From contig OZ024740.1 of assembly GCA_964016885.1 (NCBI GenBank), positions 357,616,001-357,680,000 on the forward strand: a stretch of DNA of 64,000 bases, read 5' to 3'. The stretch comes from Eledone cirrhosa. Lineage: Eukaryota. Below, one piece after another: positions 45,315 to 55,000 of the stretch (positions are counted from its first letter, which is position 1; each line of letters starts with the position of its first letter). The notes below the pieces were generated by a model that was given only the letters and a program-made list of their open reading frames with translations, had not been told where the DNA came from and ran no database searches. The position numbers and the translations under genes were made by a program.

Positions 45315-45450
45315 GTAAGTCACATTATTTATTCTCAGTATATATTAAATATTTTAAATTCTAAACTTAACAATATATTCCTTAATAAATATAATTAATA
45401 TAACAGGAATCAATGTAATTCAATCCAAAATGACATATCAGGTCATATAT

Positions 45451-46838
45451 ACTAGTTGCATCGCCAAACTGATGGAATCCTGTGTCAGAGAAACACTTTG
45501 GAACTTCTGGAGCTCTCACAGTCTTATCCGGCCCTCGCAATTTGGATTTATCCCCAACTCCAGCTGCTGTGATCAACTTATAGAGTTTCTTGAGGACATC
45601 ACCCGGATCACTGATGGCGGCTCATGGGTGGATGCTGTTTACCTTGACTTTGCGAAGGCCTTCAATTCTGTGCCACACAAAAGGCTTATGGCAAAACTCT
45701 CTGCAATGGGTGTGAAGGATGATCTTTTTAACTGGTTGAAGTCCTTCATTCTCAGTCGAAGAGAGGTAGTCACGGTTCTGGGACAGCATTCCTCACCATA
45801 TGAGATGTCATCTGGTGTACCACAGGGATCTGTTCTTGGCTCCCTTTTGTTTGTGGCATATATTAATGACATAGATGCCAACTTAAGGAATGCCACAGTA
45901 CTAAAGTACGCAGACGACATCAAGCTGTACCTTGAGATAAAAAGGACATATCCTGAACACTATAGATCTTGCTTGCAGTCTGACCTGGACACAATGCAAC
46001 AATGGATCTCAGACTGGCAACTCAAGCTAGCTGTGGACAAGTGCACCACCATGCATTTTGGGAGTAAAAACCCAGCGTCCACATACTCCCTCCACAGCAC
46101 TAATATCAAGAAGTCTTCCTGTGAACGTGACCTGGGCATTACGGTCAGCAGCGATTTGCGTTGGACGAGGCACATCTCTAAAATTGTCAAGAGGGCCGAG
46201 GGTGTCTTAGCATCACTCAGCAAGACCTTTGTCAGCCGCTCTCCAGATATCTATTTAAGGCTGTATACCACTATGGTGCGACCACACTTAGAATTTGCAT
46301 CACCAGTCTGGAACCCCCATCTTGCTCAGGACATTGACCGCCTGGAAACTGTTCAGAGACGTGCAACCAAGCGAATACCCTCCATCAGGCATCTACCATA
46401 CTCTGAGCGCCTTGCTTCCCTGGGCATGGATTCATTGAAGCTCCGACGCCTGGCAACTGACTTGGTAAACACCCACAAAATTGTTAACCATGTTGCCAAC
46501 AACAACCCTGAGTACCTTTTTGATTTCCATGTATCTAACACACGTGGACATGCCCACAAAGTAAGAAAACAGCACAGTTCCCATGACTTTCGGAAACATT
46601 TTTCACGCTCAGAGTTGCTGAAGCATGGAACAAACTACCTGCATCAGTTGTTAGCTGTCGAGACACTGCATCCTTTAAGGCCTCCATGCTTCCCGAGATC
46701 CGCCAACACTACAGCTAACACATACACACATGTACTTCCCTGACATTTGTGTATTATTCTATGTACTATATTGACGAGTTGTAGTGCACCTGAGCACTTT
46801 ACACAATAATTTCATTATTATTATTATTATTATTATAT
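45451..46838 (+). mobile_element. 5'-truncated CR1/L2-group LINE with open RT frame
   Basis: YLDFAKAF, GVPQGSVLG, YADD, ERDLG, VRPHLE, QRRATK and TRGH motifs; (TTA)n tail. Confidence 0.92.
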
Positions 46839-49645: not shown

Positions 49646-49739
49646 GATGAGTTATGATGATTTCATTAAGAATTTTGATGCATTAACATTCTGTCATATT
49701 CATCCTGATGGAGTATTAAAGGAAGTTGAAAATAATCTG
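49646..49739 (+). CDS. Calpain exon: (W)MSYDDFIKNFDALTFCHIHPDGVLKEVENNL
   Basis: ttcag| ... CTG|gtaagt; WMS..DF...F..L..C motif ending CysPc. Confidence 0.93.
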
Positions 49740-49840
49740 GTAAGTATCTTCTCGTTTTTTTTTTTATATATATGTATATTGATTCAATTGTATATATACA
49801 TCATATGTGTGTGTACGTGTCAACAATGCCTGAGATGATC

Positions 49841-49890
<50 letters not shown>

Positions 49891-50003
49891 CACATATATA
49901 TATAAATTTATATATATATATATTTATATATATATATACACACACATATATATATAATGTAATGTTCATCTCAGGCATATAATGTATGCATATATATATA
50001 AAA

Positions 50004-50063
<60 letters not shown>

Positions 50064-50371
50064 TATCTATCTATCTCTATATATAGAGAGAGATAGATAT
50101 GTGTGTTGTATTGAAGCGAATAACTATGTGTATACTCTGGGAATGTATCCTACATTGCCTATTGAGTACGCTGAAATACAACCAGTCCTGGCATTGATAA
50201 ATATAATGGGTCCGTCAACTCCTTATTATATATATATATATAAATAAATATTTGCTCTACGGTTTTATATATCTTATATATATATATTATCCTTATCGAG
50301 CCCTCTTCAGATTTTAGTCTTCACATTTATTATTATTACTATATATATATGTATATGCATATATGTATGCA

Positions 50372-50675
50372 TATCATCATCATTTCGTTTTAAGTCCGCT
50401 TTTTCTCTGCTTGCAAGGGTGGGATGGGAACTGATTCTGGCTTGATTTCTACAGCTGGATGCCCTTCCTAACACCAACCTCATTTACAGACCACTTTGCA
50501 GTGGAATGATATGGACCCCAGTCCCTATCATCTCATTTCTACAGCTGAGTAAACTGGAACAATGTGAAATAAAGTGTCTTGCTCAAGGAAACAACACATC
50601 ACCCGGTCTGAGAATTCAACTCACAACCTTTCAATTGCCAGGCCAATGCTCTAACCACTAAGCCATGTGCCTCCA
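50372..50675 (-). mobile_element. Second copy of the V-like/RTE-tail SINE
   Basis: Close reverse-complement match to 26798-27138 with an internal deletion. Confidence 0.85.
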
Positions 50676-50934
50676 ATATATATATTTATTTATATATATA
50701 TATTTATATATACAATTAAGTTAAAAATGTACATCCACATATGTATACTGAAATACTAGTATGCATATGAATACACACACGTGTACATATGTAGATGTAC
50801 CGAGTTTTTCACTGGACACTTTACTGTGAGTGTCCAGCTATTCTGTATGTAAACACACAGACAAACCGGTTTTTAGAGTCATACTGGTTTTCGAGGAAAC
50901 ACCTTTCCTCTATTCTCCAGAAAGCCAGACAAGG

Positions 50935-50979
50935 AATATTGGACTAGTTTCGATGTTGTTACATCTCATCAGCAATATT
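50935..50979 (-). ncRNA. Type I hammerhead ribozyme, array copy 1
   Basis: AAUAUUG-CUGAUGA-GAUGU(AACA)ACAUC-GAAA-CUA-GUC^CAAUAUU on the minus strand. Confidence 0.9.
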
Positions 50980-51400
50980 TACCTATCTTCCGGCCTTTCT
51001 AGAGAATCGTAAAAGCACATATCGTTATATGCTTTTTCTATGAAAATTAGTAGTGGGCAGACTAATTTGCATAGAGCGTGAGTACATACCGGTTCAGCGG
51101 AGACGATAAAAACAAATAACGAAACGAAATTAAATTTCGTTTCGTTTGTAACTCACGTTTGTATGACTGACGCTTAAACAATTAAGTTAAAAATGTACAT
51201 CCACATATGTATACTGAAATACTAGTATGCATATGAATACACACACGTGTACATATGTAGATGTACCGAGTTTTTCACTGGACACTTTACTGTGAGTGTC
51301 CAGCTATTCTGTATGTAAACACACAGACAAACCGGTTTTTAGAGTCATACTGGTTTTCGAGGAAACACCTTTCCTCTATTCTCCAGAAAGCCAGACAAGG

Positions 51401-51445
51401 AATATTGGACTAGTTTCGATGTTGTTACATCTCATCAGCAATATT
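51401..51445 (-). ncRNA. Type I hammerhead ribozyme, array copy 2
   Basis: Identical motif 466 bp from copy 1. Confidence 0.9.
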
Positions 51446-51977
51446 TACCTATCTTCCGGCCTTTCTAGAGAATCGTAAAAGCACATATCGTTATATGCTT
51501 TTTCTATGAAAATTAGTAGTGGGCAGACTAATTTGCATAGAGCGTGAGTACATACCGGTTCAGCGGAGACGATAAAAACAAATAACGAAACGAAATTAAA
51601 TTTCGTTTCGTTTGTAACTCACGTTTGTATGACTGACGCTTAAACAATTAAGTTAAAAATGTACATCCACATATGTATACTGAAATACTAGTATGCATAT
51701 GAATACACACACGTGTACATATGTAGATGTACCGAGTTTTTCACTGGACACTTTACTGTGAGTGTCCAGCTATTCTGTATGTAAACACACAGACAAACCG
51801 GTTTTTAGAGTCATACTGGTTTTCGAGGAAACACCTTTTCCTTGTTTTTATCGTCTCCGCTGAACCGGTATGTACTCACGCTCTATGCAAATTAGTCTGC
51901 CCACTACTAATTTTCATAGAAAAAGCATATAACGATATGTGCTTTTACGATTCTCTAGAAAGGCCGGAAGATAGGTA

Positions 51978-52022
51978 AATATTGCTGATGAGATGTAACA
52001 ACATCGAAACTAGTCCAATATT
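51978..52022 (+). ncRNA. Type I hammerhead ribozyme, array copy 3
   Basis: Stem I aatattg/caatatt, CTGATGA at 51985-51991, stem II gatgt/acatc, GAAA at 52006-52009, predicted cleavage after C52015. Confidence 0.9.
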
Positions 52023-52443
52023 CCTTGTCTGTCTTTCTGGAGAATAGAGGAAAGGTGTTTCCTCGAAAACCAGTATGACTCTAAAAACCGGTTTGTCTGT
52101 GTGTTTACATACAGAATAGCTGGACACTCACAGTAAAGTGTCCAGTGAAAAACTCGGTACATCTACATATGTACACGTGTGTGTATTCATATGCATACTA
52201 GTATTTCAGTATACATATGTGGATGTACATTTTTAACTTAATTGTTTAAGCGTCAGTCATACAAACGTGAGTTACAAACGAAACGAAATTTAATTTCGTT
52301 TCGTTATTTGTTTTTATCGTCTCCGCTGAACCGGTATGTACTCACGCTCTATGCAAATTAGTCTGCCCACTACTAATTTTCATAGAAAAAGCATATAACG
52401 ATATGTGCTTTTACGATTCTCTAGAAAGGCCGGAAGATAGGTA

Positions 52444-52488
52444 AATATTGCTGATGAGATGTAACAACATCGAAACTAGTCCAATATT
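52444..52488 (+). ncRNA. Type I hammerhead ribozyme, array copy 4
   Basis: Identical motif; predicted cleavage after C52481. Stem I extends over 52416-52511. Confidence 0.9.
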
Positions 52489-53069
52489 CCTTGTCTGGCT
52501 TTCTGGAGAATAGAGGAAAGGTGTTTCCTCGAAAACCAGTATGACTCTAAAAACCGGTTTGTCTGTGTGTTTACATACAGAATAGCTGGACACTCACAGT
52601 AAAGTGTCCAGTGAAAAACTCGGTACATCTACATATGTACACGTGTGTGTATTCATATGCATACTAGTATTTCAGTATACATATGTGGATGTACATTTTT
52701 AACTTAATTGTTTAAGCGTCAGTCATACAAACGTGAGTTACAAACGAAACGAAATTTAATTTCGTTTCGTTATTTGTATTTATATATATATTTATATATA
52801 TATATATATTTTAACCTGTTAGTTCTTTCGTTACTTTGGTATTGTGTGGTTGGGTTTTGCCTACCGCAATGTTCAATTTGTCAAGCTATTTAAACGTATG
52901 TAATTACTCTAAGGACCTACCCTTATTGAGTGCTTTGCTAACACATTCCTATTCTAGGTCGACTTTGCTTGGCCACAGCAAAAGCTTCGATTTTACTAAG
53001 CTTCCACTTGTATATATATTTATATATATATATTTATATATATATTTATATATATATATATATATTTAT

Positions 53070-53802
53070 ATTAGAAAGTGAGGTTTTTTTACAAAATGAA
53101 AAAAAACCGAGGTGTCCTATACGAGTGAAAGTATAAGGAAAAAAGATGAAATCGAAAATGCAACTGGAGTCTTTTTTTTAAAAATATATATTTATTTGGT
53201 TCCTTTACCGGTTTCGCAGTTCTTCTGCTTTTCAAAAGTAGAATTGAGATGGAGGGTTTGTGGTTTTTCTCACATCTGGTTTGTCTTTGAATGTTACTTC
53301 TGTTTTTTATAGAAAAAAGTGGCTTGAAATGCTAGGTTTTTAGAGAAGTAATTTGAATAAGTATAATAAATTTTGCACCAGTTCACATTACAAAGTTCTT
53401 ATTATATTTGCCTCCTTCAAACAAAGGGGGGTGGGGGCTCAGATTGTTTTTTCATATATGAGTGAAGTTTGGTTGGTTGATGCAGTCACGTGAATAAGCA
53501 CATCAGCTTTTGCGCCAGTTTGTGTTTGAATTTCTTTTTACTTAAAAAAAGGTGGCTCACGAAGGCTTTTTTTTATAAATGTAATTTGATTGGTTATAAA
53601 TGAAATTATGACTGTCATGTGAACAAGTACATTAAATTTTGTGCCCGTATTTTGGAATTTTTTTGTAGCCATTTAGAGAATTTTGTGCCAAACAAAAGAT
53701 AATGGTCAAGAAAAAAGGGATGGAGAGAGTTGTTCTGAGTATGACTGATGTGCTGAAATGTAATTTGATTGGTTATAAATGAAATTATACCTGTCACGTG
53801 AA

Positions 53803-53803
<1 letters not shown>
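53070..53803 (-). mobile_element. Probable Penelope pLTR-derived cassette between (TA)n runs
   Basis: Contains the U3:A8 hammerhead and an internal ~48-bp direct repeat (53577-53624 and 53756-53803); (TA)n on both sides. Confidence 0.4.
53200..53243 (-). ncRNA. Minimal type I hammerhead with U3:A8 core variant
   Basis: UUC-UA-CUU-UUGAAAA-GCAG(AAGAA)CUGC-GAAA-CCG-GUA^AAG-GAA; palindromic ACCGGU stem III. Confidence 0.65.
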
Positions 53804-53841
<38 letters not shown>

Positions 53842-53844
53842 TGT

Positions 53845-54450
53845 TCTATATTTTTGAGACGAGGAATTATTTACAAAAAAGACGGATAGGTGTCCTCATC
53901 TTGTTTTGTTATTAACACAACGTTTCGGCTGATGTATCCTTCAGCCTTCATCAGGTGTCCTAGTGATGTTATTATTAACGTTTGTTCAGGTCACTGCCTA
54001 GAATTGAATTCGGAATCTTTAGGTTAGTAGCCCGCTTTTTAACCACTTTTTTTCTCGTGAATTTTTAGGGCTTATAAACTGATATTTTTCTAACCTTCTT
54101 CAATACCGGTTCCCGTATACTACTCATATCTGCACTAGGTCTGCTTAGGAGGTTATTGTGTCCTAGCATATGTGCTGCCTCTTTTAGTTTTTGTGTTTTC
54201 CAGTCTGTGTCTATTATTTTAACTTCATCCTACAGGGGAAGGTGGTCTCCGTTTTTCCATACATGATCAGCTATACCGATTTATCGATCTCTCCTCGTGT
54301 CACAGCTTTACGATGTTCTTCTACCCTTATTTTGTGGGGGTGGCCTGTTTCGCCTTTGTATAATCTACCACAACTGCATGGGATGGAGTACATGCAGTCT
54401 TTGGTCATATTCTCTTCTATTGGTGGTTCTACCCAAGGAGATATTTGCAA
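53845..54450 (-). mobile_element. Penelope-like element 3' fragment (GIY-YIG endonuclease + pLTR with hammerhead), degraded
   Basis: CMYSIPCSCGRLYKGETG...RVEEH, then ADHVW...DEVKIID...KLKEAAHM...LLSRPS with stops. Hammerhead downstream. Confidence 0.85.
53914..53959 (-). ncRNA. Minimal type I hammerhead at the 3' end of a Penelope-like fragment
   Basis: GACAC-CUGAUGA-A-GGCUGA(AGGAUACA)UCAGCC-GAAA-C-GUU^GUGUU; ACGU palindrome. Confidence 0.8.
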
Positions 54451-54912
54451 ATCTAGGGGTGAATGTACAAGCGCATATGCATTAGGTATTAATTTAACAA
54501 ATGAAAATAATAACAACAAAGTTGAGTTTTTTTACCTATTCATATCATTGTTTTACTATTGTTTCGGAAGGTTAATCATATTGACATATTGTCTGATCTA
54601 TAGCAGTTATATAACTGTATATTATCAGACCCCATATATAGGTTCGGTCAGATTGTCTTCTTCGGAAACAATGTAAGTTTCTAAATCCCTCTGAATTCTT
54701 GATTATTTTCCAAATTATTTTGAAAATCATAGGCAGTGAATTATATTAGAAATATGCTAATGAAAGAGTTAATCATGTATCTATTTGATCCGAGGTTGAA
54801 TTGTGCCAAAATAACATTTACATAAGTGATGTCTCTTCTAACCAAGACCTCTGTGACTTTCATGTTTTTGTTTTTGATGTCTTTTAGTATTTTTGTTTGA
54901 TCTCCCTTGCAG

Positions 54913-55000
54913 GACAGAGACGTTTGGCATCTTACTACACACCATAGTTGCTGGGTTAAAGGAGTGTCAGCTGGTGGTTGTGGTAATTCTGGTTATGAAG
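54913..55000 (+). CDS. Calpain exon: DRDVWHLTTHHSCWVKGVSAGGCGNSGYE(E)
   Basis: ttgcag| ... G|gtaagt; W..G.SAGGC.N motif at the start of the C2-like domain. Confidence 0.93.

What the first reader, a model, noticed from the sequence alone, without database searches (positions are those of the whole stretch)
51978..52488. Dimer-type hammerheads co-oriented with the calpain pre-mRNA
Seen: stem III is only AC-(UA)-GU, the palindrome ACUAGU, which cannot form a stable hairpin alone but pairs perfectly with a second copy. Exactly two copies lie on each strand, and the + pair is in the calpain sense orientation. Known: minimal Penelope-type and satellite hammerheads with palindromic stem III cleave as double hammerheads. 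Inference: host transcription supplies the tandem pair needed for dimeric cleavage, so it could cut intron 49740-54912 co-transcriptionally and release a monomer with no promoter of its own.
Basis: partly seen in the sequence, partly recalled or inferred. Interest (0 to 1): 0.75.

Follow-up and report, generated by a model that had tools for sequence, protein, structure and literature searches.

The report
Back-to-back retrozyme masks its own hammerheads
This is one young copy of a protein-free jumping repeat that carries predicted self-cutting RNA motifs; it lies in a calpain intron as two back-to-back arrays, likely pasted in by a Penelope-type retrotransposon enzyme copying one small RNA from both cut DNA ends, and in the calpain transcript the mirror-image array is predicted to seal the ribozymes shut, so they likely do not cut the gene's RNA.

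Summary
The four hammerheads, the ACUAGU stem III and the calpain intron are real. A dimer requirement is plausible but already known (newt/axolotl type). The proposed role in the calpain pre-mRNA is not supported. The hammerheads sit in a 466-nt unit present as two head-to-head arrays (2.4 + 2.0 units) with a 12-bp target duplication in (TA)n. In host-sense RNA the antisense arm is made first and is predicted to pair with both hammerheads; forcing the dimer costs about 550 kcal/mol. '2+2' and co-orientation are by-products: 2 of 43 two-armed copies are 2+2, and 39 of 43 carry hammerheads on both strands.

The family (at least 1,582 exact cores) is a young non-LTR retrozyme. In 42 of 43 two-armed insertions one arm ends at fixed site A and the other at site B about 70 nt further on; inner ends are random. 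An intact Penelope-like element in the same genome shows the same layout. I infer priming from both DNA ends on one, probably circular, RNA. No RNA was available. The scan has already noted this layout and the antisense masking on other DNA.

The parts
49646..49739 (+). calpain exon (end of catalytic domain region), donor GTAAGT at 49740
   Evidence: sequence and translation; upstream Peptidase_C2 exons on +; this exon alone had no Pfam hit
49740..54912 (+). calpain intron holding the insertion
   Evidence: GT..AG ends, next exon 54913-55000
50701..50712 (.). left copy of the 12-bp target-site duplication TATTTATATATA in an interrupted (TA)n tract
50713..51842 (-). left arm: 2.4 tandem 466-nt units on the minus strand; outer end at site A (unit position ~229-233), inner end at unit position ~33-36
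50935..50979 (-). hammerhead H4 (predicted cut after 50942); in calpain-sense RNA it is the antisense partner of a + hammerhead
51401..51445 (-). hammerhead H3 (predicted cut after 51408)
51842..52776 (+). right arm: 2.0 tandem units on the plus strand; inner end at unit position 293, outer end at site B (unit ~295-302)
51978..52022 (+). hammerhead H1, type I, 1-bp stem III with palindrome ACUAGU (52009-52014); predicted cut after 52015
52016..52481 (+). one monomer, cut to cut (466 nt, 36% GC, no reading frame over 60 codons); as a circle 70% paired, z = -11.9 against 40 shuffles
52444..52488 (+). hammerhead H2; predicted cut after 52481, 2431 nt before the 3' splice site
52711..52776 (+). 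segment between sites A and B (Penelope-type 'tail'), including a 29-nt near-perfect hairpin at 52743-52771
52777..52788 (.). right copy of the 12-bp target-site duplication
54913..55000 (+). next calpain exon (start of the domain III region)
   Evidence: Calpain_III hits on the following exons

Best explanation
This is a recent insertion of a non-autonomous hammerhead retroelement (non-LTR retrozyme), likely made by a Penelope-like RT-endonuclease, and in the calpain pre-mRNA its two sense hammerheads are predicted to be locked in a duplex with the antisense arm, so they likely do not cut the intron. Steps: (1, inferred) multi-unit RNA from some other, unmasked array folds double hammerheads through ACUAGU and releases 466-nt monomers, probably ligated to circles, in which a lone hammerhead is poorly active. 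(2, inferred from fixed ends) A Penelope-type enzyme nicks a (TA)n tract with a 12-13-nt stagger, and the two DNA 3' ends prime at two internal RNA sites, A and B, about 70 nt apart, one end at each. (3, inferred) Each cDNA runs through the cleavage/ligation junction for a variable number of units, and the two are joined at random points, often with a few shared bases. (4, shown) The product is two head-to-head arrays with tails outward. (5, follows from 4) Any read-through transcript meets the antisense arm first, so only hammerheads in excess of the other arm stay free; this locus (2+2) has none.
For: Architecture: of 66 loci mapped (39 picked by score including the window, 27 picked by position on one chromosome), 43 have two arms of 100 nt or more, all head-to-head and none tail-to-tail. 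42 of 43 have one A and one B outer end, 0 AA, 0 BB, 1 A+other (23 of 23 and 19 of 19 among A/B-classed pairs, p 1e-7 and 2e-6). Six of the other 23 loci show a short inverted stub with the missing end. Inner ends are uniform over the unit (KS p 0.27 and 0.84), independent between arms (7 of 43 within 40 nt, 7.5 expected) and not piled at the cut site (3 of 86, 1.8 expected); 83 of 87 arm pieces cross the junction. TSD is 12-13 bp in 9 of 36 loci tested (two of the nine, L046 and L082, are less sure); 22 were unreadable and 5 gave long (TA)n-driven matches. One template lineage per insertion: a variant private to one locus is fixed in every unit of both arms in 5 of 24 score-picked two-armed loci (window 251C 4/4 against 306 units with A in 63 other loci; L042 17/17; L053 8/8; L045 3/3; L068 4/4). 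Hammerhead under selection: a double change A-U to U-A in stem II in 16 copies from 6 loci, and a related ~520-nt family keeps ACUAGU and the loop with both stems changed. An intact Penelope-like family (775-aa RT + GIY-YIG) sits head-to-head in (TA)n with two fixed ends ~55-65 nt apart, one of each in the 11 of 14 regions that the script scored. Two internal RT start sites defining the 'tail', extension of both strands and a predicted dimer are reported for Anolis Poseidon (PMC11167929). Masking.
Against: Neither of two intact Penelope-like families examined shares significant sequence with the unit, so the partner enzyme is not identified. A circle is not proven: uncleaved multimers served as template in vitro for Anolis Poseidon and ribozyme mutants did not impair insertion (PMC11167929). 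Several arrays are mosaic (9 of 41 two-armed loci share a non-fixed variant between arms), which needs multimer templates or later exchange; arrays such as L038 and L049 look expanded or converted after insertion. In that paper the start site did not differ between strands in vitro. Masking is an equilibrium prediction: the antisense arm folds on itself first (-366 kcal/mol, 34% unpaired), and stable upstream structures can resist exchange in vivo (PMC2817708). Even in the right arm alone the dimer (-330.3) is barely better than two monomers (-328.4), and both are above an inactive fold (-343.2); tertiary contacts are not modelled. Mutation counts in the hammerhead among young copies are not clearly reduced (9 of 133, 12.8 expected).
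Confidence: 0.72

Rival explanations
1. One reading: calpain transcription supplies the tandem pair, which cuts the intron co-transcriptionally and releases a monomer.
For: Two intact hammerheads in gene sense with correct spacing. A nested double hammerhead is sterically possible. The antisense arm is self-structured and might be slow to invade (PMC2817708). Intronic ribozymes can affect splicing (CPEB3, PMC10919898 passages).
Against: Both hammerheads are fully paired in nascent and full folds, with a ~550 kcal/mol penalty for the dimer. H1 must stay free until H2 is made 466 nt later. 2+2 and co-orientation are by-products. No other array with the window's fixed variant among 15 hits, 7 inspected. 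16 of 43 two-armed loci have two or more unmatched hammerheads and are better sources.
Confidence: 0.1
2. Same element and enzyme, but the template is an uncleaved linear multimer and the long homogeneous arrays arise or homogenise after insertion (unequal exchange, conversion between the arms); the hammerhead plays no part in this step.
For: Hammerhead-independent insertion in vitro (PMC11167929). Mosaic arrays and repeated blocks. Only 1 of 9 predicted Xenopus retrozyme dimers cleaved in vitro (10.64898/2026.07.22.740005).
Against: Private variants fixed in all units of both arms in 5 of 24 loci need a one-unit bottleneck each time. Compensatory stem changes show selection on the ribozyme fold.
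Confidence: 0.2
3. The inversion comes from fold-back self-priming on an antisense template (model proposed for rotifer Penelope elements), or is an assembly artefact of a palindromic read.
For: Palindromes at inverted junctions in Adineta led to the self-priming proposal (PMC3846280 passages). The arms here are 99.8-100% alike.
Against: The arms are not mirror images: they have different fixed outer ends and independent inner ends, with a TSD outside both, repeated at 42 loci.
Confidence: 0.04

Closest known systems
Metazoan non-LTR retrozymes (Cervera and de la Pena 2020, PMC7229834; Li et al. preprint 10.64898/2026.07.22.740005)
   Same: Tandem non-coding units with one type I hammerhead each, low GC, strongly self-paired predicted circle, TSD longer than 4 bp, co-occurrence with Penelope-like elements; about 43% of Xenopus copies overlap introns.
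   Different: The unit is 466 nt (original range ~170-400; the preprint gives 51-972). The parts I read do not describe head-to-head arms with two fixed ends. Expression and circles are not shown here. No homologous pLTR was found.
Newt/axolotl HHR_Amex1 dimer-dependent hammerhead (PMC7229834; PMC4209133 for the double-hammerhead model)
   Same: One-pair helix III capped by a palindromic tetraloop; helix I with a bulge about 7 pairs from the core.
   Different: Those papers report that most invertebrate retrozyme hammerheads have a 2-bp stem plus tetraloop and cut as monomers. This one has the amphibian-like form; its activity is untested.
Insertions of endonuclease-positive Penelope-like elements (PMC3846280, PMC8557442, PMC11167929)
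   Same: 5' inverted copy head-to-head, partial tandems, a tail on one end only, microsatellite target, TSD of about 10 bp, two internal RT start sites.
   Different: No ORF. The tail is ~70 nt rather than 30-40. Arms reach 15.8 units. There is a strict one-A-one-B pairing, which was not seen as a strand preference in vitro.
Intronic regulatory ribozymes such as CPEB3 (PMC10919898)
   Same: A self-cleaving motif in gene sense within an intron.
   Different: This is a very young repeat copy, one of more than 1,500 cores, predicted to be masked by its own antisense arm.

Membership tests
non-LTR retrozyme | tandem units, each with a type I hammerhead | tested here: met
non-LTR retrozyme | no protein coding, GC under 50% | tested here: met
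   longest stop-free frame 60 codons, GC 36%
non-LTR retrozyme | dispersed multicopy family with TSD longer than 4 bp | tested here: met
   1,582 exact 38-nt cores, control 0; TSD 12-13 bp where readable
non-LTR retrozyme | highly self-paired predicted circle | tested here: met
   -158 kcal/mol, z -11.9 against 40 dinucleotide shuffles
non-LTR retrozyme | expressed as linear and circular monomers; self-cleavage | not testable with these tools
   needs RNA data or a bench assay
non-LTR retrozyme | sequence kinship to the pLTR of an autonomous Penelope-like element | tested here: inconclusive
   no significant match to two intact families; other families in the genome were not examined
Penelope-type insertion | head-to-head inverted copy with tails outward | tested here: met
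   43 of 43 two-armed loci
Penelope-type insertion | two fixed 3' ends differing by a tail | tested here: met
   42 of 43 A+B
autonomous Penelope-like element | RT plus GIY-YIG ORF within the element | tested here: not met
   none in the unit or between the arms
Penelope min-hammerhead (PMC4209133) | [quoted passage not shown] | tested here: not met
   CUGAUGA is followed directly by G10.1; it is the canonical satellite type with a palindromic loop 3
dimer-dependent hammerhead (HHR_Amex1 type) | one-pair helix III with palindromic tetraloop, conserved | tested here: met
   ACTAGT in 315 of 332 descriptor hits in fetched DNA, 11 of the rest being another family; kept in a diverged relative
dimer-dependent hammerhead (HHR_Amex1 type) | dimer cleaves much faster than monomer | not testable with these tools
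   the energy model separates them by only 2 kcal/mol in context
intronic regulatory ribozyme | able to fold in the host pre-mRNA | tested here: not met
   in silico only: fully paired to the antisense arm

The most novel reading that the evidence does not exclude
The family's insertions record the unsolved Penelope integration step. A dimeric enzyme holds one ribozyme-made RNA circle with its two active sites fixed at A and B, each cut DNA strand primes at one of them, and both roll round the circle. The 'tail' would then be the spacing of the two active sites, and the 5' inversion is obligatory twin priming. The resulting head-to-head layout puts antisense first in any read-through transcript, a built-in muzzle that spares host genes and leaves only lopsided arrays as sources.
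Probability: 0.45. Interest if true: 0.7.

Novelty: new member of a known kind. Interest (0 to 1): 0.45.

Why it matters
For calpain it likely matters little, except that an ~870-bp perfect intronic duplex is a predicted editing or silencing substrate. For mobile-element biology, how Penelope-like elements make their tandem/inverted insertions is described as undefined (PMC8557442), and how animal retrozymes integrate is proposed rather than shown. A young family with fixed A/B ends, an intact 775-aa Penelope-like ORF of the same layout in the same genome, and a 466-nt template make both questions testable in vitro.

Tried and rejected
Rfam at gathering score: no hit. Public runs: no RNA holder listed; six runs of unknown kind. 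Their contigs hold many variants of the unit, but neither junction could be read because the (TA)n was skipped, so presence/absence polymorphism of this insertion is undecided. Search for the partner: two intact Penelope-like families, 48% identical at protein level, gave no significant DNA match to the unit; the second has no CUGANGA on its sense strand. Six apparent 'b+b' ends in the first family were alignment over-extension and resolved to a+b; 3 of 14 regions were not scored there. Test that mosaic variants lie in phase from the outer ends of both arms: 13 of 21 concordant, 11.2 expected, p 0.27, not supported. A-to-G excess among array-shared variants (9 A>G against 6 T>C): not convincing. 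Offspring of this array: 15 hits, 7 fetched; 251C occurred there only in single units of other subfamilies. Promoter motifs: no exact match. A pairwise arm-length bias between A and B was not significant (p 0.05 and 0.16, in opposite directions). Lunse 2017 on dimeric Penelope hammerheads was not held; I saw only its title in a reference list. No passage on exon tethering was obtained. Searches for a prior description of this layout or of octopus hammerheads listed none by title or abstract; subscription papers and preprint supplements were not visible.

Full report
Observation. The window holds four identical type I hammerheads, two on each strand, with the palindrome ACUAGU in place of helix III. 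The bare core motif is at chance frequency in the window, but the full fold is not: a loose descriptor found only these four and one poor hit. Rfam has no match at gathering score. The gene is a calpain on the + strand, and 49740-54912 is an intron with canonical ends. A monomer must close a single A-U pair over CUAG (+5.9 kcal/mol against open), while two palindromes pair at -4.8. This is the newt/axolotl form, which cleaves poorly alone and well as a dimer (PMC7229834, passages; PMC4209133, passages). There is no extra base between positions 9 and 10.1, so it is the canonical satellite type rather than the Penelope minimal type.

What the hammerheads belong to. They lie in a 466-nt non-coding unit (36% GC) that folds as a 70%-paired circle (z -11.9, 40 shuffles). 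Here it forms two head-to-head arrays, 50713-51842 on minus (2.4 units) and 51842-52776 on plus (2.0 units), bounded by a 12-bp duplication in a (TA)n tract. The genome holds 1,582 exact copies of the 38-nt core (control 0), a lower bound because older subfamilies differ there. Those subfamilies show a double change in stem II (16 copies, 6 loci), and a related ~520-nt family keeps the palindrome and loop while changing both stems, so the fold has been under selection.

Insertion anatomy. I mapped 66 loci: 39 from the best-scoring 40 of 349 candidates and 27 taken in positional order from the first 100 of the 1,582 hits (three clusters already held were not refetched). Forty-three have two arms of 100 nt or more, all head-to-head. 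In 42 of them one arm ends at site A (unit 227-233) and the other at site B (unit 296-303), with no AA or BB; one is A plus another end. Of the remaining 23, six show a short inverted stub with the missing end; the others are single-armed, rearranged or ran beyond the stretch fetched. Outer ends run into (TA)n almost everywhere. Inner ends are uniform, independent between arms and not enriched at the cleavage site, and arms reach 15.8 units. TSDs are 12-13 bp in the 9 of 36 tested loci where a short duplication could be read. In 5 of 24 score-picked two-armed loci a private variant is fixed in every unit of both arms, including this window's. Other arrays are mosaic.

The likely enzyme. An intact, very young Penelope-like family (4.2-kb unit, 775-aa RT + GIY-YIG ORF, its own small hammerhead with palindrome AGUACU) shows the same layout: head-to-head, (TA)n, two fixed ends, one of each in 11 of 14 regions scored. 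It shares no significant sequence with the unit, nor does a second intact family, so the partner is not named. For Anolis Poseidon, RT starts at two internal sites that define the tail, both strands are cut and extended, and a dimer is predicted; ribozyme mutants did not block insertion (PMC11167929, parts 1-2 of 4 read). Inverted 5' copies, tails and microsatellite bias are known for these elements (PMC8557442 and PMC3846280, passages); the latter proposed fold-back self-priming, which the independent inner ends here do not fit. I infer priming from both DNA ends at A and B on one template that is circular or multimeric. A circle best explains the one-unit bottleneck; later conversion or expansion is not excluded, and my in-phase test was negative.

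The calpain hypothesis. In a head-to-head insertion any read-through RNA meets the antisense arm first. In calpain-sense RNA both + hammerheads are completely paired to the left arm, H1 already when transcription has just passed it. Forcing the double hammerhead costs about 550 kcal/mol, and two monomers about 155. The caveat is kinetic: the antisense arm is itself structured, and stable upstream structures can resist exchange in vivo (PMC2817708, abstract and one section). No other array fixed for this locus's marker turned up. About 43% of Xenopus retrozyme copies overlap introns (10.64898/2026.07.22.740005, parts 1-3 of 5 read), so the position is ordinary. I put intron cutting at about 10%.

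Standing. It works like, and meets the sequence-level tests for, an animal non-LTR retrozyme with Penelope-type insertion marks; expression, circles and cleavage are untested. I wrote this reading before looking up earlier notes. The scan has noted the same two-armed layout for 310-, 318- and 467-nt families in this genome (the last may be this family at another locus) and antisense masking at other genes; these notes are unchecked and not independent support. Those notes call the genome octopus-type, which I did not test. My literature searches listed no paper describing the one-A-one-B rule, but the library is partial. Other papers seen: PMC7761336 and PMC10919898 (passages), PMC4836649 (one reference line). 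Interest 0.45.

Noticed in passing
window 53886-53975 and 54271-54531 (minus): A decayed Penelope-type fragment in the same intron: a GIY-YIG-like frame (recognised by eye, no Pfam hit) followed by its own small hammerhead with palindrome AACGUU (core at 53948-53954), antisense to calpain.
   Followed up: partly
window 53132-53803: 76-90% match to the non-coding part of the second intact Penelope-like family, next to the (TA)n at 53011-53071; a third Penelope-related insertion in this intron.
   Followed up: partly
L126-L128 (G000:C26:20.69-20.71 Mb) and L129-L145: Very young autonomous Penelope-like family: 4.2-kb unit, upstream ORF of ~480 codons, 775-aa RT + GIY-YIG ORF with a Cys motif before the nuclease, head-to-head arrays of nearly two full units per arm at 99.4-100% identity.
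   Followed up: partly
L166-L180: Second intact Penelope-like family (775 aa, 48% identical to the first) with no CUGANGA on the sense strand of the unit examined.
   Followed up: partly
L078:150-1260: Related ~520-nt hammerhead repeat, 67-81% alike in part, with the same palindrome, co-varied stems and a GUA cleavage triplet.
   Followed up: partly
run X4 (organism B): A single 495-nt contig whose ends repeat (a closed 465-nt cycle) covers the whole unit at ~98% identity with an intact hammerhead, while the host's common flanking repeat is not covered. It could be a circle or a uniform tandem; the run type is not on record.
   Followed up: no
L038, L050, L076 and the autonomous family: The longest complete arms cluster at about 7.3-7.8 kb in both the retrozyme and the autonomous element; possibly a processivity limit, possibly an effect of the 10-kb fetch size.
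   Followed up: no
L182, L184-L187, L034: Older subfamilies have U at the cleavage position (GUU) where the youngest has C (GUC); most contig depth in runs X1 and X2 also shows U.
   Followed up: no
window 45358-46743 (+): 461-codon frame with a non-LTR reverse transcriptase domain (PF00078, E 3e-32) in an upstream calpain intron, in gene sense.
   Followed up: no
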